A stretch of DNA of 64,000 nt from Octopus sinensis (taxonomy: Eukaryota), in the NCBI RefSeq assembly GCF_006345805.1, contig NC_043012.1, positions 39,122,001 through 39,186,000 of the forward strand. The letters are read 5' to 3'. Positions within the stretch are counted from its first letter, which is position 1. Each line of letters starts with the position of its first letter. Below the pieces are notes generated by a model. The model did not search any database. It was not told where the DNA came from and saw nothing but the letters and a program-made list of their open reading frames with translations. Position numbers and translations under genes: made by a program. This document shows, one piece after another, positions 4,010-61,260 of the stretch.

Positions 4010-4225
4010 CTGTGGGACGGAGGCGTTTTTAGTAAATGTACACAATCTTGAAAAAAGAGAGCACCTCTGTGGGGCAGAGACTGTCGTAAAAAATGTATTC
4101 AATTCGGAGACAGGGGAGACAGCATATATGGGGACAGACACGCTTGTAAAAAAGATGAACAATCGAGAGAGACAGAGAGAGTGAGGGGTGAGGCAGCACG
4201 TTTGTTGTAGAAAATATATACATTT
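4010..4225. repeat. Degenerate ~58-bp minisatellite, left part (continues at 6317-6395 beyond the LINE)
   Basis: Core CTGTGGGACAGA-like words at 4010, 4067, 4127, 6317 and 6375, most followed by GTAAA…CAAT. Confidence 0.6.
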
Positions 4226-4227
4226 TC

Positions 4228-6290
4228 AGGCAGTGAAAAGTCCCGCCTGAAAATAAAACTGTTGGAAATTGAAAAATGTTTGCAACTCTCCCATGGAAAA
4301 GAAAGAGCAGACAAAGAAGCCTGGGCTATAGACAACGTAAATTCTAACCCCAGAGCTTTCTACAGGTATGCCAAAGGAACAGCTACGGTGCACTGTAGGA
4401 TAGCGCCACTCCTTGAAAAGGATGGCACACTCACAGGAAATCCAATGGGGGTAAGTGAAATACTAAATGAGCAATTTAAGAGTATTTTCACTCCACCCCT
4501 AGGACATTTTCAAGTCAGCAATCCAACTGACTTCTTTACCACTGCAGATATAAAATCAGAGGCAGCGATGATTGATTACATCAATATAAATCAATATAAA
4601 GGAAGACGATGTAATAAAGGCTATAGATGAAATGAAAACAAACTCAGCTACTGGCCCCGATGGATTCCCAGCAATCCTTCTAAAAGTATGTAAGAGAGTC
4701 CTAGCAGACCACTGCAGTTCCTCTTTCAGAGCTTCTTTGCAACTGGTAAACTCCCAAGAAAACTGAAGGAAGGTAAAATATGCCCTATTCATAAAGGAGG
4801 TAGCAGAGCGGAGGCCAATCTCTCTGACCTCACATATCAGCAAGGTCATGGAACGAATAGTCAGAAGGAAACTAATCGCCTTCCTTGAAGAAAATGACTT
4901 GCTGCCTGACACCCAACAGGGTCTCCGACCAGGAAGAAGCTGCTTAACTCAGCTCCTACAACACTATGACTGGGTGCTGAAACGACTGCTTAACCACTCA
5001 AATGTGGAAGTGATATATCTCAACTTTGCAAAGGCCTTTGATAAAGTCGACCATGGAATGATATGTCCCAAACTGCGTGATCTTGACATAGTTGGAAAAT
5101 TGGGATAATGGCTTCATGACTTTCTGAAGGATAGAAGTCAGGTGGTAGTAGCCAATGGGGCCACTTCCATTAACATGCAAATAGTGAGCGGTGTTCCGCA
5201 GGGCACTGTTTTGGGACCACTACTGTTCATAATGGCCCCCTCAGACATGCCCTCAGCCACGCAGAGAGCCACGATCACAAGTTATGCAGATGATACAAAA
5301 GTTTCACAGGCAATACAGAACCCTGAAGACACTAAGCACCTGCAATGTGAGCTGGACAAAATATACAAGTGGGCTGAAAAGAAAAGCATGCAGCTCAATG
5401 CTGAAAAGTTTCAAGCTTTATGCTATCAGCATGCAAAGCTAAATGCAATACCCAATAAATACACTGGACCTGGAGGGATTGCAATCCCAGAGGCACAATC
5501 AGTGCGAGACCTGGGTATTTACATGAGTAATGATGCAACCTTTCATGTGCATGTTGCTAAATTGGCAATGAAATGTAGGCGGCTGTCCGGATGGATTCTT
5601 AGAACCTTTAGAACAAGAGACCAGGAAACCATGATGGTCCTCTGGAGGACACTTGTCCTAAGCCACTTTGACTATTGCTCTCAGCTATGGTCACCATCCA
5701 GTGTCAAGTTAATCACAGAACTTGAGGCGATCCAACGAAGCTACACGAAGATAGCCTCTGTGCAGCATACAAGCTATTGGGAAAGACTCAAGAGATTGAG
5801 ACTCTATTCCTTAGAGTGTAGGCGAGAAAGATATGCCATAATATACATCTGGAAGATCCTAGAAGGACTTGTCCCAAACTTTGGCATCGAGAGTTACACA
5901 AATGCCAGAACTGGGCGCCACTGCATAGTGCCAAGGACACCAAATTTGCCATCAAGATGTAGGACAAGATATTGTGATAGCCTGGGCTTCCGAGGCCCAC
6001 AGCTCTTCAATATCCTCCCGAAGAACCTAAGAGACCTGCATGGGGTGGATGCAGATGTCTTTAAAATGGAGCTGGATCTCTTCCTGTCAGGTGTCCCAGA
6101 TGAACCAACTTCACGGCAGGAGGTGCAGATGAGGGCAGCTGCATCAAACTCTCTCATGCACCAAATGGCAATTGCTAAAAAGCATTCGTGAAGTAAAATC
6201 ATATAGAAACACCAAATGGCGGTGCCCCAGCATGGCCATAGCTCGTGAGCTGAAACTAGATAAAAATAAAGATAAAAAAAATAAATAAAA
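4228..6290 (+). mobile_element. 5'-truncated CR1-group non-LTR retrotransposon (LINE); ORF2 reverse transcriptase with frameshifts and a stop
   Basis: Motifs ATGPDG, LRPGRSCLTQLL, FAKAFDKVDH, SGVPQGTVLGPLLF, YADDTK, RDLG, RRERY, RGPQLFN across ORFs 4262-4630, 4848-5108 and 5142-6191; in-frame TAA at 5106; short 3' UTR ending in a GATAAAAA-rich tail. Confidence 0.95.
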
Positions 6291-13314: not shown

Positions 13315-14146
13315 TTAGGGTTGGCAACTAAGTTCCCGCCGATTTTTTTAATTTTGGAATTTATTGAGTTTTTAAATTGTAGAATCTATTTTTTCGAAAA
13401 ATCTATTTTTGAATAATTTTGGAATATAAATTTTTTTCTAATTAGTTTTAGTTAATTTTTGGTTATTTTCAGATCATTAAAAAGGAATGACAAGTTTAGA
13501 AAAACCAGCATTTTCGACACCTTTTTGCTTTTAATTATGGTTCTAAGGCCACAAAACCTACGTGAAACCGAACAAAAGCGGGCCTGAAACAAGGTCTTCA
13601 TCTAAAACGATGTTCTGCGTATGGTGGGACTGGGAAGAGATTATCCATTACGAATTTCTTGAACGGAACCAAAAGGTCAACGCGGAACTCAACAGATGTT
13701 CAACAGATGGAACGACTCAGCGCGGCAGTTCAAGAGAAAAGACCTAATCGTCAGCATGGGGTTCTTCTGCTGCACGACAACGCCCGCCCTCATATTGCCA
13801 ATATGAACCAAGGAAGCCATTCAAACGCATGGCTGGGAAGTGCTGCCACACCCGCGTACTCTCCTGATTTGGCACCAACGGATTTCCACTTCTTTCAATC
13901 TCTTTCAAATGATATGCGCAGAGCTTCGTTCAATACTGATGCAGAATTGAGAGCTTGGTTGGATCAACTTTTCGAGTCGAAATTGGATGATTTCTACCAA
14001 CGAGGTATTAAAAATCTTGTTGAATGTCGGGAAGATGTTTTAAACAACACGGGTGAATACATTGTTGATTAATTAGTTGTTGTTCTTTATTAACCCTTAA
14101 AAAAAATTAATTTTAAAAAACGGCGGGAATGTAGTTGCCAGCCCAA
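13315..14146 (+). mobile_element. Internally deleted mariner transposon (mellifera-subfamily-like)
   Basis: TIRs TTAGGGTTGGCAACTAAGTTCCCGCCG and CGGCGGGAATGTAGTTGCCAGCCCAA, flanked by TA on both sides; transposase motifs QHFRHL, CVWWDWEEIIHYE, LLHDNARPH, YSPDLAPTDFHFF; frameshifted. Confidence 0.95.
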
Positions 14147-19673: not shown

Positions 19674-19721
19674 GTCTCTGATGAACGGAAATGACTCATA
19701 TCCCTGAAACAGCTGTAAGAC
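19674..19721 (+). ncRNA. Minimal type-I hammerhead ribozyme motif
   Basis: GTCT-CTGATGA-[stem II 19685-19705, two mismatches]-GAAA-CAGCTG-TA-AGAC; stem I GTCT/AGAC; stem III ACAGCTGT is palindromic. Confidence 0.8.
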
Positions 19722-21679
19722 TACCTTTGTCTTTATAAATGCTCTAGAAATTTCACACTCTCTTGGTCTGTTGTTTTATTTTACTTATATATATGTGCGT
19801 ATATTTTTTCGCGGGCGCTTGTCAGCGTGCATTGGAGCGGTTCAACTTCTCCAGGCGCCAACGCCGCCTCAACGTTCCCTCCAACGTTCCCTCCAACGGC
19901 GCGCTGACATTATCATCAAACCGGCTGACAAGGGTGGAGCTGTAGTGGTGTGGCGCGCGGACCTCTATAGGGCCGAGGCTTTCCGCCAACTCAATGACAC
20001 CTCCTTCTATTCCCCTCTGCCCTCTAACCCCACACGTAGCTACCAACAGACGGTATCCTCTACTGTCCGCGACCTCATCTCGTCCTCTTCTCTCCCCGCA
20101 CCGCATCCAACCTAATTGTGCGAACCCCACGTACCCCCACCATTTACTTCCTCCCCAAAATCCACAAACCCAACAACCCTGGCCGCCCCATCGTCTCCGC
20201 CTGTAACTCTGCCCCACGGAGCTCATCTCTAAATACCTCGACCGTGTCCTTGCCCCCCTAGTGGCATCTCTTCCCTCCCACATCCACGATACCAACCATG
20301 CTCTCCGGCTTTTCAACTCTTTCTCCTTTCCTCCCGGCTCCTCCAAAATCCTTTTCACTATGGACATCCAAAGCCTCTATACTGTTATCCCTCACCACGA
20401 AGGACTGCAGGCCCTTCGACACTTTCTTGACCTCCGCTCTAACCCTGTACCTGACACCTCCACACTCATTCGTCTGCCGACTTGTCCTTACTCTGAACTG
20501 CTTCTCTCGTTCGCGGGCGAGTTCTACCATCAGGTCTCGGGAGTGGCCATGGGAACGCTAATGGGCCCCAACTATGCGAACCTGTTCGTTGGCTATGTTC
20601 AGGACCAAATATTCTCTAATTTCACTGGTCCCACTCTGAACTATATGGTCGTTACATTGACGACATTATCGGTGCCACCTCACTCTCCCGTGAACATCTA
20701 GATTCCTTCCTCTCTTTCGTCCAATCTTTCCATGCAGCCCTCCACTTCACTTCCACTATCTCCAACACCTCTGTCTCCTTCCTCGACATTTCGGTTAGCA
20801 TTCTTCACTCCACTCTTAACCACCCTCCATTCACTACAAACACACAGACTCACACTCATACCTCAACTCTTCTCTTCCTCCCACCCAGAACACACCAAGC
20901 TTTCCATCCCCTATTCCCAATTCCTCCGTCTACGTAGTGACGACCATGACTTTGAGACTCAGTCTCAACGTATGGCTCACCACTTCACCCTACGTGGATA
21001 CCCCCTCACCACTATCCACACCGCCCTTGCCAGAGCATGGTCCGTGGACCGTGTATCTGCTCTCTCTCCCCGACCCCGCCCTGTAGTCTCCCGCCTCCCT
21101 TTCCCTCACTTACCACCCCACGACCCTACGTCTCCACGCACCATTCTTCGAGCTTTCCGTCATCTCCAGTCCGACCCGTCCATTCACACCTCTTCCCTAA
21201 CCGACCCCTCCCCTCTTTCAAACGAGCCCACAACCTTCGAGACCTTTTGGTCCATAGCTCCTTCCCTGACCCTACCTCCCAACCCGGCTCGTTCCCCTGC
21301 TCCCGCCCACGTTGACGCACTTGCCCTTACCTCTCCAACACCACCCGCCTCACTAGCACCCACCATCGACCCTATCCCATCATCCACTCCTTCACCTGCA
21401 CCTCCAGCAATATTATCTATTGCGTCTCTTGCTCTCTCTGCAATTCCTTGTACATCGGACAAACGGGACGCCGCTTGGCTGACCGGTTCGCGGAACACCT
21501 CGTGACATCCACCTTGCGAACGACACACCGGTCTCACGCCATTTCCGCTCCACCACGTCACTCCTTGCAACACCTATCTATGTTCGGTTGTCCTTACACA
21601 GAGGCCATCCGGATTCCCGTTTGCGCCGTGAACAAGAATTAATCTTTTCTCTTCGCTCTTATACGCCATTTGGTCTCAC

Positions 21680-21985
21680 TCTCCCCCCTCCTCATCTAAC
21701 CCCCCTCTCCCCCCTCCTCACCTATCCTTCCCCCCGACCCCTACTTCTTCAGTCCTTCATCCTTCACTCCTACTCCCCTTCCCTTCTTCCCTCTTTCTCT
21801 CCCTCCTTCCCTCTTCCTCTGCTCCCTCACTCCCTTCTTCTCTCTCTCCCCCCCTCTTTTCCCCCCTTCTCTCTCCCCCCTCCCCCTCCCTTCCTTCTCC
21901 CCCTCCTCTCCTCTTCCCCCATCTCCTCCCCCTCTTCTTCCCCTCCCCCTCCCCCTCTTCTCCCATCCTCCCCCTCTCTCCTCAC
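21680..21985. repeat. Polypyrimidine (C/T) low-complexity tract in the PLE 3' region
   Basis: About 300 bp composed almost solely of C and T. Confidence 0.9.
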
Positions 21986-22407
21986 TACACCACACACGAC
22001 TTTACACATCACATCATTTATGATGTGCCATACTAATACATACACCAACTAATACATACTAATACGTACTAATACATACTAATACATACACCAACCCTAT
22101 ACATACAGACGTCCAGACCCCTCATACGCACTTATACTCTCTCATACACACACACACACACACTTATACATACTAATACGTACTAATACATACTAATACA
22201 TACACCAACCCCATACATACGCCTGTCCAGACCTATCCTAGGGTCACTCAACCCTATTATCAACCCTATTATCTCCCCTTATTTCGCTCTCGCGTCTCAT
22301 GTTTGATCTTTGACCTCTGGCCGAAATCAGATCGCCATGTTGATTCGTTAGTTACTGCACGCATTTTTTTTCTCTCCTTCTTTCTGTGTTTTTTTTCTCT
22401 CTGTGTA

Positions 22408-22445
22408 TCTTTCTGTTGAAGAGCGTAGGCTCGAAACGTTAAAGA
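22408..22445 (+). ncRNA. Variant minimal hammerhead motif in the PLE terminal repeat
   Basis: TCTTT-CTGTTGA-A-GAGC-GTAG-GCTC-GAAA-CG-TT-AAAGA; stems I and II pair perfectly; core has U at position 6 and an extra A. Confidence 0.65.
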
Positions 22446-22542
22446 GTTGTTTTATTTACATTTCCTGAGCGCCATACTAATACAATTGTTCGTTTGTTTT
22501 CCACCTGCCTTCGTCTTTTGTCTATTTTCATAAAGCTTCCCG

Positions 22543-22617
<75 letters not shown>

Positions 22618-27314: not shown

Positions 27315-28690
27315 AACTTGCTGACTGACACCCAGCATGGATTTCGACCAGGTAGAAGCTGCCTAACACAGCTCCTGCAACACTATGACTGGGTATTAAA
27401 GCAGCTACTAAATGGCTCAAATGTGGACGTGATATATCTCGACTTTGCAAAGGCCTTTGATAAAGTCCACCACGGTATGGTTTGCCACAAACTGCGTGGT
27501 CTCGGCATAGGCGGAAAACTTGGAGAGTAGCTGCACAACTTCCTAAAAGATAGAAGACAGGCAGTTGTGACCAATGGAGCCACCCGCAAGGAAACACAAA
27601 TAACAAGCGGTGTTCCACAGGGCACTGTCTTGAGGCCACTACTGTTCATAGTGGCCCTTTCAGACATGCCCTCAGTTGCTAAGATGGCCACCCTTGCTAG
27701 CTATGCAGATGACACAAAAGTCTCCCACGCAATACAAAACCCTGAAAATATTGCGCATCTGCAACAGGAGTTGGATACAATATACAGGTTTGCTGAGGAC
27801 AACAACATGCAGTTTAACGCAGGTAAGTTCCAGGCCCTGCGCTACAGGCACACAAAGGTAAACGACATGCAGACTGGATACACTGGCCAGGGAAGAATTG
27901 CAATCCCTGAGTCAAAATCATTGCGTCACCTGGGCATTGACATGAGCAATGATGCATCTTTCCAAGTGCATATTACTAATCTGGTGATAAAATGCAGACG
28001 GCTAGCTGGATGGATTCTCCGAACTTTCAGAACAAGAGAGAAGGAGAAACTGATGGTCCTCTGGAAAACTTTCGTCCTCAGCCGCTTGGCCTACTGCTCC
28101 CAACACACAATATAAAACTAACAGCAGAACTCGAAGCAATTCAAAGAAGCTACACAAAGAGATCATCTCAATGCAACATATCAGCTACTGGGAAAGACTG
28201 AATGTATTAAAACTCTTCTCCCTAGAGCGAAGGCGGGAGAGATATGCGGTGATATACATCTGGAAAATCCTGAAAGGTCTTGTCCTAAACTTTGGCATTC
28301 CAAGTTACCACAACCGCAGAACGGGGCGCCACTGCATGGTGCCAAATATTCCAACATCACCATCAAAATACAGGACCAGATACTGCAACAGCTTGGATTT
28401 CAGAGGACCACAGCTCTTTAACATCTTCCCTAAATGCCTGAGAGACTTGCATGGTGTGGATGTGGGTTTCTTTAAAACTAAATTGGATTTCTTCTTGTCG
28501 GGGGTCTCAGATGAATCTACCTCACGACAGGAGACACAGATGCGGGCAGCAGCATTGAACTCCCTTGTTGATCAAGTGCCACGTATCAGAGGTGGATTCA
28601 CATATTAGTGTAGCTCATTCAACGGTGGTGCCCCAGCATAGCCGTGGCATTCGGGCTAAAACATTTTTAAGGATGTAAGGATTTAAGGAT
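27315..28690 (+). mobile_element. 5'-truncated CR1-group LINE, second subfamily
   Basis: QHGFRPGRSCLTQLL, LDFAKAFDKV, SGVPQGTVL, YADDTK, RRRERY, RGPQLFN; clearly homologous to 4228-6290; TAG at 27528 and frameshifts; (TTTAAGGA)n-like tail. Confidence 0.95.
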
Positions 28691-28704
28691 ACATACATAT
28701 ATTT

Positions 28705-29122
28705 GAACGATGTTGAGAATATACCGCCAGCATTGCCCAAACGACCTTAAGTTAACTTCAAAATTCATCCCAGGCTAGGACCACGGGCTATACGTCCCCT
28801 ACCTAATTCAGGATCACAACTGCAACACAAGTTATTTTCCGCAACAGGCCCTGTCCTATTTAAAGTTGTCCCAAAACAGATCAAAGAGGAAAAGGATCCC
28901 TTTACCTTTAAACGGAATCTGGACAAATTTCTTGAAAGAATACCATATAAGTCACCTTTCCTTGACATAACTCACTAAACAAGAACTCCCTTCTCGAGTG
29001 GGCCATTATACCACAAAATTAGACTTTAAAAGGCTTTAGATAATCCTAATAGGTGGTTCTATTAAGTTAGACATGACATGGACCAATTTTTGGTCGAAAA
29101 CATATCTAAATTCTATCTAAGT
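28705..29122 (+). mobile_element. 3' fragment of a third, more distant CR1-group LINE
   Basis: Plus-strand translation HPRLGPRAIRP…GPVLFKVVPKQIK…FKRNLDKFLERIP parallels the GPQLFN…FK.ELD.FL..VPD C-terminus of the other two LINEs; (TATCTAA) tail repeats. Confidence 0.75.
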
Positions 29123-29124
29123 TT

Positions 29125-29178
<54 letters not shown>

Positions 29179-29389
29179 CATACATACATACATACATAAT
29201 AATACATACATACATACATACATGTATGGGATTGTGCGTGGATATGCAATGAAATGACTGAATTCAATATCGCATCAAGAGTTCCGTCTCTTAAGGCAAA
29301 GTGCGATTTATTCAAACAAGGATGTACTTAACGCTTCGTTATTGTCTTCCCTTTTTCGGGGGATGGGGGTCCTCCAAAGAGTGCAGACC

Positions 29390-30150
29390 CATTATCTCCT
29401 GCTCGGTGAATTTTCTACCTCTACTAGTGTAAAATTCTTCCAGGTGTTCTGTTTTACATCTACTTCAGTACCGAAGGTGTGTCCTTTGAATGAAATTCGA
29501 TGCGAATGGAACAGGTGGAAATCTGAAGGCGCAAGATCAGACGAATATGGAGAGTTGGTCAAAAGTTCCAAGAGAAACCCAAGTAACTACTACCGCGTCT
29601 GCAAAGATGTGTGCTATCAGGAATTGCCGTGATGAGAGAGAGTGCCCTCATGAGTATCAAGTGATGGCGACCTCTAGGGCACCAATTCATTTCATTTATC
29701 CATCTAGTCACAATATATACCCGAGTTGACGGTGATGTCCGTGAGAAGAGGGTCTTGAAAGGAAAGCCTTTCCAATCCCAATCCCAAGGTGAAAGCATAG
29801 CCTTCGGGTGAGGATCTCCTTTGGAAGTATTTTTATTTTTATTTTTGTTGGTGGTTCGCTGCATTTCCCCTACGATGGTTTGTGTTTCATATTTTTATAG
29901 GCGATCAATTTCTCTTTCCCTGTCTCCATTTTCATAAAGAAAATGAAAGTCTCCTTTACTCTTCTGTCACGAAGCGAAATTATCTGCATTCAACTAATGT
30001 GTGACGCATCGACTCTGCTGACGTATTCAGGAGGACGAAGATGGTTTTCAACACTCGATTTGGATACTTAGAGAATATCTGGATCAACCTGGTCGTGTAA
30101 AAGGTGTTGGTGTGATTGTTAATTTCAGTTGGCCGGCAAGATCGAACTGC
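29390..30150 (-). mobile_element. Highly decayed mariner transposase relic
   Basis: Minus-strand peptides in the correct order: RSCRPTEI, METGKEKLIAY (cf. TGDEKW), PHPKAMLSPWDWDWKG, HHGNS..HTSLQTR, PYSSDLAPSDFHLF; TIRs not identified. Confidence 0.85.
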
Positions 30151-30307
30151 ATGGTGAACCATCATCTGCGTAAACAGTACATGTCTTCTTGCAGGTTCCC
30201 ACCGCTTTTTTGACTTTCTTCAAAATAAACAAGCATGAGATGCCGATAATGTTCGTTTTGTTGCTTTATATTCAATATAATGCCAAGCACAGAGAATATG
30301 TGTGTAT

Positions 30308-30378
<71 letters not shown>

Positions 30379-30665
30379 TAGTAAATAGTATGTGAACTAC
30401 TAATCTACAATAGACTTTAAAATTGATTTGACAAACAATAAAGTTCACGACGCGCCGTGTACTCTTGTGTAATCTTTCACTCCCCAAAAACAAAATGGCT
30501 GTATTCTTAGGAAGAAAAAAAAACAGACAGAAAGAACGAAAAAAATACACGATAAAGAAAACGAGATAAACTGTGAACCAAGAGAAGAGCTTTGTTTTAT
30601 GTGTATAATATAACATACATACATATATTATATATATATATATATAATAATATATATATATTCAT

Positions 30666-30726
30666 ATTCAGCAAAACTGTCCGACGAACGGGAACGTGAA
30701 ACTCAGAGTAACAGGTTTTGTTGAAT
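30666..30726 (+). ncRNA. Type-I hammerhead ribozyme motif with long stem I (U4C core variant)
   Basis: ATTCAGCAAAACTGT-CCGACGA-ACG-GGAA-CGT-GAA-ACTC-A-GAGT-A-ACAGGTTTTGTTGAAT: 15-bp stem I with one bulge, 3-bp stem II with GNRA loop, GUA cleavage triplet; AATAAA at 30743. Confidence 0.8.
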
Positions 30727-31356
30727 TGGTCTGCTGCTTTTGAATAAAGTATATACATATATATATATAATTATATATATATACATATATATAGTATATA
30801 TAATATGAGAGAGAGAGAGAGAGAGAGAGAGATAGACAGACAGACATGAGTATGTTGTTTTACGACTAGTTTTCACTCTTTCTCTCATATTTTCTTTTCC
30901 TTCTAGCATCCTTTTGATGAAGTTCGCGCGATGATAGCATCAAAACTTCCCCCCACATTTTTAAAGTTTTAGAGTAATGCGAAATATACGAAGACTTGTA
31001 CATCCAATGCTAATGAAAAGAAAAAAACTAAAGCAAAACAACTGACGTTCAAAAAGAATGTATATATGGAATGCATCAAGGTGACGCCTAGTTTAAGAGG
31101 GGAAAAAACAGAGTGAGCGCGTCAGGTTTTTGACCAGGTAGAGGAGTGACGAAGAGTCCGGAGAGAAGGGGGAAATAGTCCAAGAAAACATTGGTGTCAA
31201 TACAAGGATGAAGTGACCAACAACTAATTTTGAGCTCTGTCTGCCTGAGTGTCTGTCTGTCTCTTTCCCTCTCCCTACTTCTCTTTCTCTCTCTCTTTGT
31301 CTCTCTCGTTATATATGTGTGTGTGTGTGTGTGTGCGCGCGCGCGTGTGTGTGTGT

Positions 31357-31642
31357 GGAGGCGTAATGACCCAGTGGTTAGACAGCGGCCTCGCGGTTTC
31401 GATTCCCAGACCTGGCATTGTGTTTATTGAGCGAAAACAACCTAAAGGCTCCACAAGGCCCTGGCAGGGGGGAGGGGGTGATCCTTGCTGTACTCTTTCT
31501 CCACAACATTCTCTCACTCTTTCTTCTATTGGCCTGCTCGCTTAGCCAGCGGGGTGGCGGCATTTCAAGGCTAAAACAATGCGCAGCGCATTGTGACCAG
31601 TGATGTGTAGTAAGATCTAATGATCTGGTCGGTCACGTGATA

Positions 31643-31650
<8 letters not shown>
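31357..31650 (+). mobile_element. tRNA-derived SINE family C
   Basis: A-box-like TGACCCAGTGGTTAG and B-box GTTTCGATTCC; 3' part recurs inverted at 62303-62395. Confidence 0.75.
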
Positions 31651-31682
<32 letters not shown>

Positions 31683-31691
31683 TATATATAT

Positions 31692-31749
31692 AATGGCGGT
31701 GCCCCAGCATGGCCACAGCTCATAAGCTGAAACTAGAATCAATCAATCA
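31692..31749 (+). mobile_element. Extreme 3' stub of a CR1-group LINE
   Basis: AATGGCGGTGCCCCAGCATGGCCACAGCTCATAAGCTGAAACTAGA nearly matches 6215-6260, followed by an (AATC)n tail. Confidence 0.85.
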
Positions 31750-31974
31750 TATATATATATTTGAAAGAATGAGTTGGCTTTTAGAGAGGATAATTGTTAT
31801 TCTAAATTAAAATTACCTACAAAAGAGCCATCTGTACTCATGCTTTCAAGTGTATATAATACTGTACCAAGAACTTTCCCTTTAATATTTTACTATGTGT
31901 GTGTGTGTGTGTGTGTGCGTGTGTGTGTATGTGTGTGTGTATGTGTGTGCGTGCGTATGTGTGTGTTTGTGTGT

Positions 31975-32188
31975 CTGTGTTTGTCCCCCTAGCATTGTTT
32001 GACAACCGATGTTGGTGTGTTTACGTCCCTGTCACTTAGCGGTTCGGCAAAAAAGAGATCGATAGAATAAGTACTGGGCTTACAAAGAATAAGTATCGGG
32101 GTTGATTTGCTCGACTATAGGCGGTGCTCCAGCATGGCCGCAGTCAAACTGACTGAAACAAGTAAAAGAGTAAAGAGTAAAAGAGTAA
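31975..32188 (+). mobile_element. SINE family A, 3' half beginning at the internal (TG)n tract
   Basis: Near-identical to 6930-7128. Confidence 0.9.
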
Positions 32189-32189
32189 T

Positions 32190-37260
<5,071 letters not shown>

Positions 37261-53849: not shown

Positions 53850-54735
53850 ATGGCGGATGATAATAAGGCAACTGCCTGTGCAAGAAGGAACCAACAATTG
53901 AAACGTTGGGCGGACTCTGATACAAATAGGGAATCGATTGGCGTTCGAGACCGACCTAAAAGAGTTAATTTTCAGGATGGTTGTCTTTTTAGCAGCGTGT
54001 TCTAGGGGAGATAAAGACGAAGTGATAAAACTGTTGGCTCGAGGAGCAGATATTAACACCGCCAATGTGGATGGGCTTACCGCTCTACACCAGGCATGTA
54101 TTGATGACAAAATTGACATGGTGAAGTTTCTTGTTGATAATGGTGCTGATGTTGATGTCTGTGATAATGAAGGTTGGACACCTCTTCATGCTACAGCTTC
54201 ATGTGGCTTTAATGACATTGCACAATATCTTATCAGCACCTGTGCCAATAAAGCTGCTGTTAACAATGATGGCGATCTTCCTCTTGATATATGTGAAGAA
54301 GCCAAAATGGAAAAGTTGCTTCAAGAAGAAATGAATCGCCAAGGTGTGGATGCTGAAGCAGCACGACTAGAAGAGGAAGAAATGATGCTTTCTGATGCTA
54401 ACCAATGGTTAAATTCCGATTGTGTGACAGAGCGGCCTCATGCAAAAACAGGTGCTGTTGCTCTTCATGTAGCAGCAGCAAAGGGCTATATCAAAGTTAT
54501 GCATTTATTAAACCAAGCAAAAGCTAATGTAAATATCAAAGACTCAGATAGTTGGACTCCTCTTCATGCAGCAGCTCACTGGGGCCAGGAAAGAGCTTGC
54601 AAAATATTAGCTGAAAATTTCTGTGATATGGACTCAAAAAACAATGCAGGGCAAACTGCCTTTGATGTTGCTGATACTGAACTTCTTTCTTTACTTGAAG
54701 AACTCAAAAAGAAACAAGCTAAGCTTAGAGATAAA
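53850..54735 (+). pseudogene. PPP1R12A: Processed (intronless) PPP1R12/MYPT1 myosin phosphatase targeting subunit retrocopy, N-terminal ~295 codons, one frameshift near 53984
   Basis: GCTGCCATGG Kozak start; MADDNKATACARRNQQLKRW (MyPhoNE motif), KRVNFQDGC (RVxF motif), then frame change to VFLAAC…DINTANVDGLTALHQACIDD…GWTPLHATASCG…ALHVAAAKGY…WTPLHAAAHWG (ankyrin repeats); homology stops at KKKQAKLRDK with no GT donor. Confidence 0.88.
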
Positions 54736-54780
54736 TATATGCATATGTTTTTTATTAATAATATATATATATATATATAT

Positions 54781-54880
54781 TCTTCTTCTTCTTCTATCTT
54801 CTTTCTTCTCTTCTTCTTCTTCTTCTTCTTCTTCTTCTTCTTCTTCTTCTTCTTCTTCTTCTTCTTCTTCTTCTTCTTCT
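54781..54880. repeat. (TTC)n microsatellite
   Basis: Direct inspection. Confidence 0.97.
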
Positions 54881-55362
54881 CCCCCCTCCTCTTCCTAACT
54901 TTATCACTAATACTTTTTAGTATAACACCTATGCAAATTATATAAACAAACCTTTCAATAGAAATATTTTCATGAATTGAACAGCAGGAACTGCTAGCCA
55001 CCACAGACCAACGACAATCAAGGCAATCCCAAATTCTTCCTCCCCTTCTCCCCCTCCTCCTCCTTCTTCTTCCCTACCAAGAATTCACATGAACCTTAAA
55101 CCCACAAGAGTAAACAAGAGAGACAGAGAAAGGCAGAAACAAGGAAAATGCCACTTATATTTGAACACTATACAAATATTCTTTTCAAATAACTTTTCTT
55201 TTAATTTTTCTAAATTGAATTTTTTCATTGTTACAGTTGAAAAGGTCTCAAATGACCGAAACCGGTACTGAAATGTTCCTTATAAAATTATTTTAGCATT
55301 TTCTGTCTTGACTTGTTTTTTCATATACATCAACTCGTGTGTCCCTTTTCATCCTTATACAT

Positions 55363-60204: not shown

Positions 60205-61225
60205 GTATATCAGATTATGACACTTTTTATAAACATGCCCCATATTATAAAAAAGCTTTAAAAGAAGTAGAATACAACTGTAATATATATTTTTTTAATT
60301 ATTATGAACACGATAATAATAATAATAATAATAGTAATAGTAATAGTAATACTATAAGTATTCCTAATAAAACTAATAATAATTCTAACAGTAAAAATAT
60401 GATTAATAATAATAATTAAAGACAATATAACAAACTAAATAAAGATAAAAACAATATACTTGTTAATAATGTTTACAATAATAATAGTAATCATTATAAT
60501 GAGAATATGAGCAATAGTAAGAAACATAGTAAAGTATACATAAAGAGATGTAATATAACTAAGAATAACAATTTAATACCGATGATGTCTACTAATAAGG
60601 ATATTATAAAAACATAAAAAAAGGATATTATATGGTTAATTATTCCGTATGGGGATCAAGTTATGACTAATATTATTAAGGAGATACTTAAGATAGTAAA
60701 AATTGTTTTTAAAAAGGACAATATATTTTCCAATAAAACCATAAGAGTGAGATACTCAACACCGAGAAATGCAGGCAATATGATTTCCTCTATAAATAAG
60801 AAATTAAATAATTATTACAATAGCATAATAAGTAATAGCTCTAGCCATAATATGGCCGATAGTGACAGAAGACTTAATCAACGTGCAGAAAAATGTTCGT
60901 GTCGTGATAAGACTAAATGTAATATAAATAACGTAATTTATAAATGTATAGTTAACTCTAAGAACAATAATAATAAAATTATATATAAGGCTTATATTGG
61001 ATCAACAGCTATTTAAATAAGTCTACAGGCTTTAGTAAATATATATGGGAATTAAAATCTAGAAAAAGAGAGTACACACTTAATTGGAGTATTATAGGTA
61101 GAGACCAATCCTATAATAGTTATAGATAGATATATAAATATACGATAAATAAGACACCAAAGTACGATATATAGATGCATATAACGCTGAAGGGTTTCAC
61201 CTAATTGATTTGGAAATTATTTTTC

Positions 61226-61228
<3 letters not shown>
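60205..61228 (+). mobile_element. Decayed 3' part of a Naiad-like PLE (RT thumb, Asn-rich linker, GIY-YIG endonuclease)
   Basis: [18 protein letters not shown]; KKDIIWLIIPYGDQVMTNI; IFSNKTIRVRYS; CSCRDKTKC; NVIYKCIV…AYIGST; STGFSKYIWELK…YTLNWSIIGR; bounded by (TA)n on both sides. Confidence 0.8.

Positions 61229-61260
<32 letters not shown>

What the first reader, a model, noticed from the sequence alone, without database searches (positions are those of the whole stretch)
30661..30750. A ~90-bp 'ribozyme + poly(A) signal only' unit sitting between (TA)n tracts
Seen: the unique DNA between two TA-rich arrays is almost entirely a hammerhead fold, followed by AATAAA. It has a 15-bp stem I with one bulged G, core CCGACGA (C instead of the usual U4), a 3-bp stem II capped by a GGAA tetraloop, GAAA, stem III ACTC-A-GAGT and a GUA cleavage site. 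Established: Penelope-like elements carry minimal type-I hammerheads in their terminal repeats, often with palindromic stem III that works as a dimer. Inference: a 1-nt stem III loop is implausible in a monomer, so this may be a dimer- or trans-acting ribozyme. It could be the core of a minimal non-autonomous microsatellite-targeting element that cleaves or terminates read-through transcripts. No parent element for it is present in this window.
Basis: partly seen in the sequence, partly recalled or inferred. Interest (0 to 1): 0.8.

Follow-up and report, generated by a model that had tools for sequence, protein, structure and literature searches.

The report
Penelope-like retroelement stub with variant hammerhead
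The 90 bases are the clipped end of a common Penelope-like jumping gene that has thousands of copies in TA repeats and full-length parents elsewhere in the genome; its hammerhead ribozyme motif is of a known kind and likely inactive in this lone copy, although a whole older lineage of the element spread with an unusual change in the ribozyme core.

Summary
Observation confirmed; the idea of a separate minimal element is not. The hammerhead motif is there as described (1 descriptor hit in the window, 1 in 40 shuffles). It is the 5'-truncated, tail-less pseudo-LTR end of a ~3.4-kb Penelope-like element: at least 4,334 core matches lie in this genome, and full-length copies carry the motif, AATAAA and a 71-nt tail running into an intact 711-aa RT/endonuclease ORF with Hydra-clade motifs. 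Published Hydra ribozymes have the same 1-nt-loop palindromic stem III. C4 is a lineage trait (1,509 matches) of an older subfamily with no shared ORF stops; the youngest subfamily has canonical U4. Most C4 copies (77 of 96) start within 20 nt of the core, at the 5' edge of stem I; only 10 matches join (TA)n at the cut site. C4 copies rarely extend far upstream (9 of 96, against 14 of 30 for U4 copies). This could mean that ribozyme activity governs insertion length, but that is untested. Mostly known biology, with one testable lead.

The parts
30604..30660 (.). 5' (TA)n target tract
30661..30749 (+). 5'-truncated, tail-less pseudo-LTR stub of a Hydra-type Penelope-like element, C4 subfamily
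   Evidence: 91% over 92 nt to the end of long copy L213
30666..30680 (+). hammerhead stem I 5' arm; family 5' ends pile up at its upstream edge
30681..30687 (+). core C3-C4-G5-A6-C7-G8-A9 (C4 instead of U4; lineage trait)
30688..30697 (+). stem II with GGAA loop (GCAA and an A-A base in the young subfamily; both loops fit GNRA)
30698..30710 (+). GAAA, quasi-palindromic stem III ACTC-A-GAGT and H17 (predicted cut after A30710)
   Evidence: same layout in published Hydra ribozymes
30711..30726 (+). stem I 3' arm
30743..30749 (+). AATAAAG: the family's short 3' end, where the 71-nt tail would begin; likely a reverse-transcription start site
30750..30806 (.). 3' (TA)n target tract

Best explanation
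The unit is the 5'-truncated, tail-less 3' end (pseudo-LTR) of an autonomous Penelope-like retrotransposon with Hydra-clade motifs, likely made when the element's enzyme nicked a (TA)n tract, began reverse transcription at the short start site after AATAAAG on uncleaved RNA and stopped about 90 nt later near the likely 5' end of that RNA. Shown: family membership, parent ORF, two 3' ends, TA targets, pile-up of 5' ends. Inferred: target-primed reverse transcription from two start sites (by analogy with the anole Poseidon element), a transcript start about 14 nt before the core, and a ribozyme that cuts only as a dimer or with protein help and is probably silent in this lone C4 copy.
For: 346 exact and 4,334 relaxed core matches, controls 0. 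L213 runs from RT and endonuclease remnants through a ~1.16-kb 3' UTR into the same C4 core and tail. 4 of 30 RT-bearing loci (L222, L236, L241, L247) have open frames of 721-728 codons, and in 11 of 12 junctions printed the ribozyme, AATAAA and tail run into the ORF; 88 tail-ORF junctions genome-wide, two tandem pairs 3,334 and 3,397 bp apart. Protein motifs RWK, DKT, CxCX5C, CxxC/CxH, no CCHH match the Hydra definition (PMC8557442). 17 of 26 published Hydra ribozyme rows have a 1-nt loop III, 5 of them actc-n-gagt. Exactly one tail in 57 of 58 C4 and 16 of 16 U4 double-armed counts (a few insertions counted twice). TA within 14 nt of the 3' end in 64 of 92 and 23 of 30. 77 of 96 C4 cores end within 20 nt upstream; 40 of 58 inverted arms end between -17 and +5. 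Only 10 matches join (TA)n at the cut site. Two start sites, tail and uncleaved template are shown in vitro for another PLE (PMC11167929).
Against: No cleavage, transcript start or priming was measured. Pfam finds no RT or GIY-YIG family in the ORF. No tree with published Hydra proteins was built. The element (~3.4 kb) and tail (71 nt) are longer than the published norms (<3 kb; 30-40 bp). All 16 ribozymes found upstream of 30 tail-ORF junctions were U4 type (the pattern came from U4 copies), so no full-length C4 copy with a 5' pseudo-LTR was seen. The pile-up could instead be a stall or fold-back at stem I, and an antisense self-priming model is in print (PMC3846280). The cut-site count has no neighbouring-site control.
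Confidence: 0.85

Rival explanations
1. The stubs are a self-propagating minimal non-autonomous element (retrozyme- or SINE-like), transcribed from stubs and mobilised in trans by the Hydra-type protein.
For: Stubs far outnumber long copies in the C4 lineage (87 of 96 within 50 nt) and share a sharp 5' edge; non-LTR retrozymes are proposed to derive from PLE pseudo-LTRs (bioRxiv 10.64898/2026.07.22.740005).
Against: 5' ends vary base by base and grade into the UTR and ORF; direct tandems (L121, L122) duplicate truncated copies with their TA or unique flanks; a tail-less stub lacks the second start site; C4 ORF copies share no stop codon.
Confidence: 0.07
2. The 5' pile-up and inverted arms come from the ribozyme structure itself: the enzyme stalls or the cDNA folds back at stem I (or primes itself on an antisense template), and the transcript start lies elsewhere.
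For: Some junctions switch strand exactly within the stem I complementarity (L006, L017); palindromic junctions were read as antisense self-priming in rotifer PLEs (PMC3846280).
Against: A fold-back copy should have the same 3' end as its template, yet the two arms nearly always differ by the tail (57 of 58; 16 of 16).
Confidence: 0.2
3. This copy is an active ribozyme or terminator kept to process host read-through transcripts.
For: Core intact and stem I slightly stronger than in the family.
Against: It is an ordinary member of 346 identical cores; monomer stem III is unstable; a single minimal PLE hammerhead did not cleave in vitro (PMC4209133); U4C lowers activity in vitro (PMC3088659); no partner copy in the window.
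Confidence: 0.03

Closest known systems
Hydra clade of C-terminal-endonuclease Penelope-like elements (Craig et al. 2021, PMC8557442)
   Same: RWK, DKT, CxCX5C linker, CxxC/CxH, no CCHH; (TA)n targets; ribozyme with palindromic 1-nt-loop stem III (Hydra-2_aMil has ctgt-ctgatga...actc-g-gagt-a-acag); inverted arms; tail on one end.
   Different: Not the listed octopus family Hydra-1_oBim (other ribozyme and protein, by eye); ~3.4 kb with a 1.2-kb UTR; 71-nt tail; a lineage of 1,509 matches with C4, where 26 of 26 listed Hydra rows have U4; the young subfamily has lost the second linker Cys.
Minimal dimer-type hammerheads of metazoan PLEs (Cervera and de la Pena 2014, PMC4209133)
   Same: Type-I topology, palindromic 15.2-16.2 region, mostly solo copies from truncated PLEs, opposite-strand pairs.
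   Different: C4 (mostly with C7) core; no G10.1-C11.1 pair (A-U or A-A); very short stem II.
Poseidon element of the green anole (Frangieh et al. 2024, PMC11167929)
   Same: Two 3' ends separated by a tail; AT-rich targets; ribozyme uncleaved in inserted copies.
   Different: Other clade; here both ends are followed in the element by TA-like letters (CATAT; TGTA/TCTA), so short target homology is possible (by eye).
Non-LTR retrozymes (PMC7229834, listing only; bioRxiv 10.64898/2026.07.22.740005)
   Same: Short non-coding unit with a type-I hammerhead related to PLE pseudo-LTRs.
   Different: Dispersed truncation products of a coding element, not tandem arrays of a fixed unit.

Membership tests
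Hydra-clade PLE | single ORF with RT and C-terminal GIY-YIG-type endonuclease | tested here: met
   711-aa ORF; RT motifs (FDII, MGAYDG, YRDD) and C-terminal nuclease region aligned with 9 homologues. By motif only: Pfam gave 0 families.
Hydra-clade PLE | RWK motif; DKG changed to DKT | tested here: met
   RWK in all 10 rows; DKT in L231, L232, L213 (EKT in L236)
Hydra-clade PLE | CxCX5C linker | tested here: met
   C-N-C-K-D-E-S-S-C read from C4 copies L211 and L214; young U4 copies have C-N-F
Hydra-clade PLE | no CCHH; CxxC and CxH around the conserved E and N | tested here: met
   CRLCLLEK and NQRSE..CRH; no CCHH seen by inspection
Hydra-clade PLE | (TA)n insertion and hammerhead near the 3' end | tested here: met
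Hydra-clade PLE | phylogenetic placement among published Hydra RTs | not tested
   reference proteins seen only as text in the supplement
EN+ PLE insertion | pseudo-LTR, inverted 5'-truncated arm, tail on one end only | tested here: met
   57 of 58 and 16 of 16; the window copy itself is a solo, tail-less arm
Type-I hammerhead ribozyme | core CUGANGA...GAAA...UH within three stems | tested here: inconclusive
   all positions fit except U4 (C); stem III stable only as a predicted dimer; Rfam no hit
Type-I hammerhead ribozyme | self-cleavage | not testable with these tools
   needs an in vitro assay
Non-LTR retrozyme | tandem array of a fixed non-coding unit, each with a hammerhead | tested here: not met
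   dispersed copies with variable 5' ends continuous with a coding element

The most novel reading that the evidence does not exclude
The two subfamilies are a natural experiment on what the PLE hammerhead is for. Reverse transcription starts near the 5' end of the element's RNA and runs off, giving stubs. Only ribozyme-cut and re-joined (circular) RNA lets the enzyme go on into the UTR and ORF. The weak C4 core therefore gave mostly stubs (9 of 96 copies beyond 50 nt), and the return to U4 gave more long copies (14 of 30) and the youngest, larger wave.
Probability: 0.2. Interest if true: 0.7.

Novelty: new member of a known kind. Interest (0 to 1): 0.3.

Why it matters
As a locus it matters little: one dead stub among thousands. 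As a family it offers intact young ORFs, two natural ribozyme cores (C4/C7/U11.1 and U4/U7/A11.1) on an otherwise shared pseudo-LTR, and a measurable difference in insertion length. The role of the hammerhead in endonuclease-bearing PLEs is called unclear in PMC8557442 and was dispensable in vitro in PMC11167929, so this pair makes that open question directly testable.

Tried and rejected
Rfam on 28000-34000 and 30662-30750: no hammerhead family. L033 as parent: its upstream endonuclease remnant belongs to a different, older PLE family joined to the stub. L052 tail extension as element body: an unrelated abundant repeat. L121 476-bp tandem as the full element: other copies extend more than 1.5 kb further. 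In-frame intron from the GUA site to just past the tail, with a start codon in the U4 core: no skipping joint in 4 guessed-RNA contig sets, one contig crosses the proposed acceptor unspliced, and homologues of ~700 aa begin near the downstream Met; dropped, not disproved. Expression: no RNA holder listed on record; contig depth cannot show level, strand or ends, so nothing is concluded. The family, with the C4 state, lies in runs of four organism labels (depth shares unreliable). Rooting the subfamily tree with distant proteins was uninformative (17 sites favour U4 copies, 13 favour C4 copies). Compensatory covariation within the family: none among 246 cores, so the fold rests on cross-family comparison with the published table. 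A direct search for C4 cores linked to the ORF junction could not be run, so full-length C4 copies remain unsearched. Luense et al. 2017 could not be read; supplements of PMC4209133 and PMC3088659 were not opened, and Repbase/Dfam are not held; the C4 variant or this family may be described there.

Full report
Observation. A relaxed type-I hammerhead descriptor hits once in the window and once in 40 shuffled windows. Against it: the 90-mer folds like its shuffles (z -0.13) and Rfam has no hammerhead hit. The 15-bp stem I is cleaner here than in the family because this copy lacks two bases of the 5' arm. Predicted energies favour an intermolecular stem III (-7.4 kcal/mol) over a monomer stem III (+0.2).

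It is a repeat. These are match counts and lower bounds; inverted pairs count twice. C4 is thus a lineage trait. Among 246 distinct cores in fetched loci (a sample enriched for C4), 166 are C4/C7/GGAA/U11.1 and 59 are U4/U7/GCAA/A11.1.

The parent. Two early leads failed: L033 (junction with another PLE family) and L052 (unrelated repeat). The shared upstream body of L121 led to a 5'-truncation series more than 1.5 kb long and to L213, which runs from RT and endonuclease remnants through a ~1.16-kb AT-rich UTR into the C4 core and a 71-nt tail, then (TA)n. A search with that RT gave 30 loci, 4 with open frames of 721-728 codons. In 11 of 12 junctions printed, ribozyme, AATAAA and tail lie directly before the ORF. 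There are 88 such tail-ORF junction matches, and tandem pairs give a unit of 3.3-3.4 kb. The window holds no other piece of this family, only a 29%-identical remnant of a distant relative at 60.6-61.1 kb.

Clade. The 711-aa protein has 1,076 homologues among 7,999 scored candidates, mostly ~700 aa and unnamed. It shows RWK, DKT, CxxC/CxH, no CCHH, and in C4 copies a CxCX5C linker, the features that define the Hydra clade (PMC8557442; passages, section 11 and supplement parts read). In that paper's table, 17 of 26 Hydra ribozyme rows have a 1-nt loop III, 5 have actc-n-gagt, and 26 of 26 have U4. The listed octopus family differs by eye. Pfam detects nothing and no tree with published references was built.

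Subfamilies. Over 527 codons, C4-linked and young U4-linked ORFs differ by 63 synonymous and 34 replacement codons with no shared stop; private changes in C4 copies are 26, 51 and 6 stops (Fisher p 7e-6). The path between them was therefore under purifying selection, which fits an autonomous C4 lineage, though the test cannot assign selection to one branch. Mean pairwise distance is 6.1% among 7 C4 copies and 1.9% among 15 U4 copies. The tree is a ladder from the C4 group through L220 (C4-linked) and L221 (U4) to the young group. A return from C4 to U4 is plausible, and both changes are CpG transitions, but the root is not established.

How stubs arise. I examined 96 cores in 90 loci taken from the first 100 listed of the 346 C4 matches, and 30 of the 2,656 U4 matches. 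Copies have two 3' ends: after AATAAAG, or after the tail. Where an inverted arm exists, exactly one arm has the tail in 57 of 58 and 16 of 16 counts, with a few insertions counted twice. This is known qualitatively (PMC8557442; PMC3846280, passages) and matches the two start sites shown in vitro for the anole element (PMC11167929, parts 1-2 of 4 read). AATAAA does not set the end: there is no poly(A), and the end lies 1 nt after it. 77 of 96 C4 cores and 13 of 30 U4 cores end within 20 nt upstream (C4 values are about 1 nt too high), with an edge near -15, where an initiator-like YYANWYY motif lies (motif recalled). Inverted arms agree: 40 of 58 end between -17 and +5. Only 10 matches genome-wide join (TA)n at the cut site, against 17 of 96 sampled C4 cores with a TA tract within 18 nt upstream, about 12 of them clean junctions by eye; there is no neighbour-site control. 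I infer priming on uncleaved RNA and run-off near the transcript start. In Drosophila Penelope the start lies in the pseudo-LTR (PMC2377424, passages). The window copy is such a run-off from the short site.

The ribozyme in this copy. A single minimal PLE hammerhead did not cleave in vitro and dimers did so weakly (PMC4209133, parts 1-2 of 4 read; review PMC6765202, passages). U4C lowers activity in vitro yet allows viroid infection (PMC3088659, passages). With no partner nearby, this copy is probably silent.

The lead. C4 copies extend beyond 50 nt in 9 of 96 cases, U4 copies in 14 of 30 (p 2e-5). Independently, C4-type sequences are 30 of the first 100 core matches but 6-10 of the first 100 of 1,117 matches about 60 nt upstream. 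If circular templates made by the ribozyme (proposed in PMC4209133) are what allows long copies, this is the expected pattern. Other lineage differences, such as enzyme processivity or promoter position, and lower exact-match survival of older copies could also explain it. I give it 0.2.

Novelty. PLE stubs with minimal hammerheads are in print since 2014. I found no description of this family or of a C4 lineage in searches or in a recent octopus repeat annotation (PMC13282606, passages; no mention of hammerheads). Luense et al. 2017, Repbase and Dfam could not be checked. The retrozyme preprint was read in part 1 of 5 and passages. Earlier scan notes report like stubs and the same 5' pile-up in other genomes; they are unchecked leads, not evidence. 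Verdict: new member of a known kind; interest 0.3.

Noticed in passing
window 19708-22543 (+): A broken PLE of another clade (DKG motif in the RT) ending in (TA)n, with a degenerate hammerhead-like motif near 22412-22447 whose position 3 is not C; like motifs flank L025 and L162.
   Followed up: partly
window 60618-61230 (+): Remnant of a distant Hydra-type ORF (29% to the parent protein) ending in (TA)n.
   Followed up: partly
window 53902-54945 (+): Uninterrupted 347-codon frame with ankyrin repeats followed by a (TTC)n tract; looks like a processed copy of a myosin-phosphatase-targeting-type gene (name recalled).
   Followed up: no
L124:651, L249 (-) 2834 and a stem II AGAGC family (L205 flank): CCGA cores also occur in three other small hammerhead families of this genome (1-2 copies each), so C4 may be tolerated widely in its PLE ribozymes.
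   Followed up: partly
L236 ORF codon ~564: The young, expanding subfamily has lost the second cysteine of the CxCX5C linker yet still inserts in (TA)n.
   Followed up: partly
L033:1181-1537: A stub joined to the 3' end of an older, different PLE family that has its own longer-stem hammerhead.
   Followed up: yes
L213:9671-9741: The tail holds hairpins and by eye resembles the sequence after the ribozyme of coral Hydra-2_Amil, a possible conserved protein-binding signal.
   Followed up: no
window 4211-6191, 27531-28608, 13566-14072: LINE-type RT remnants and a DDE transposase remnant.
   Followed up: no
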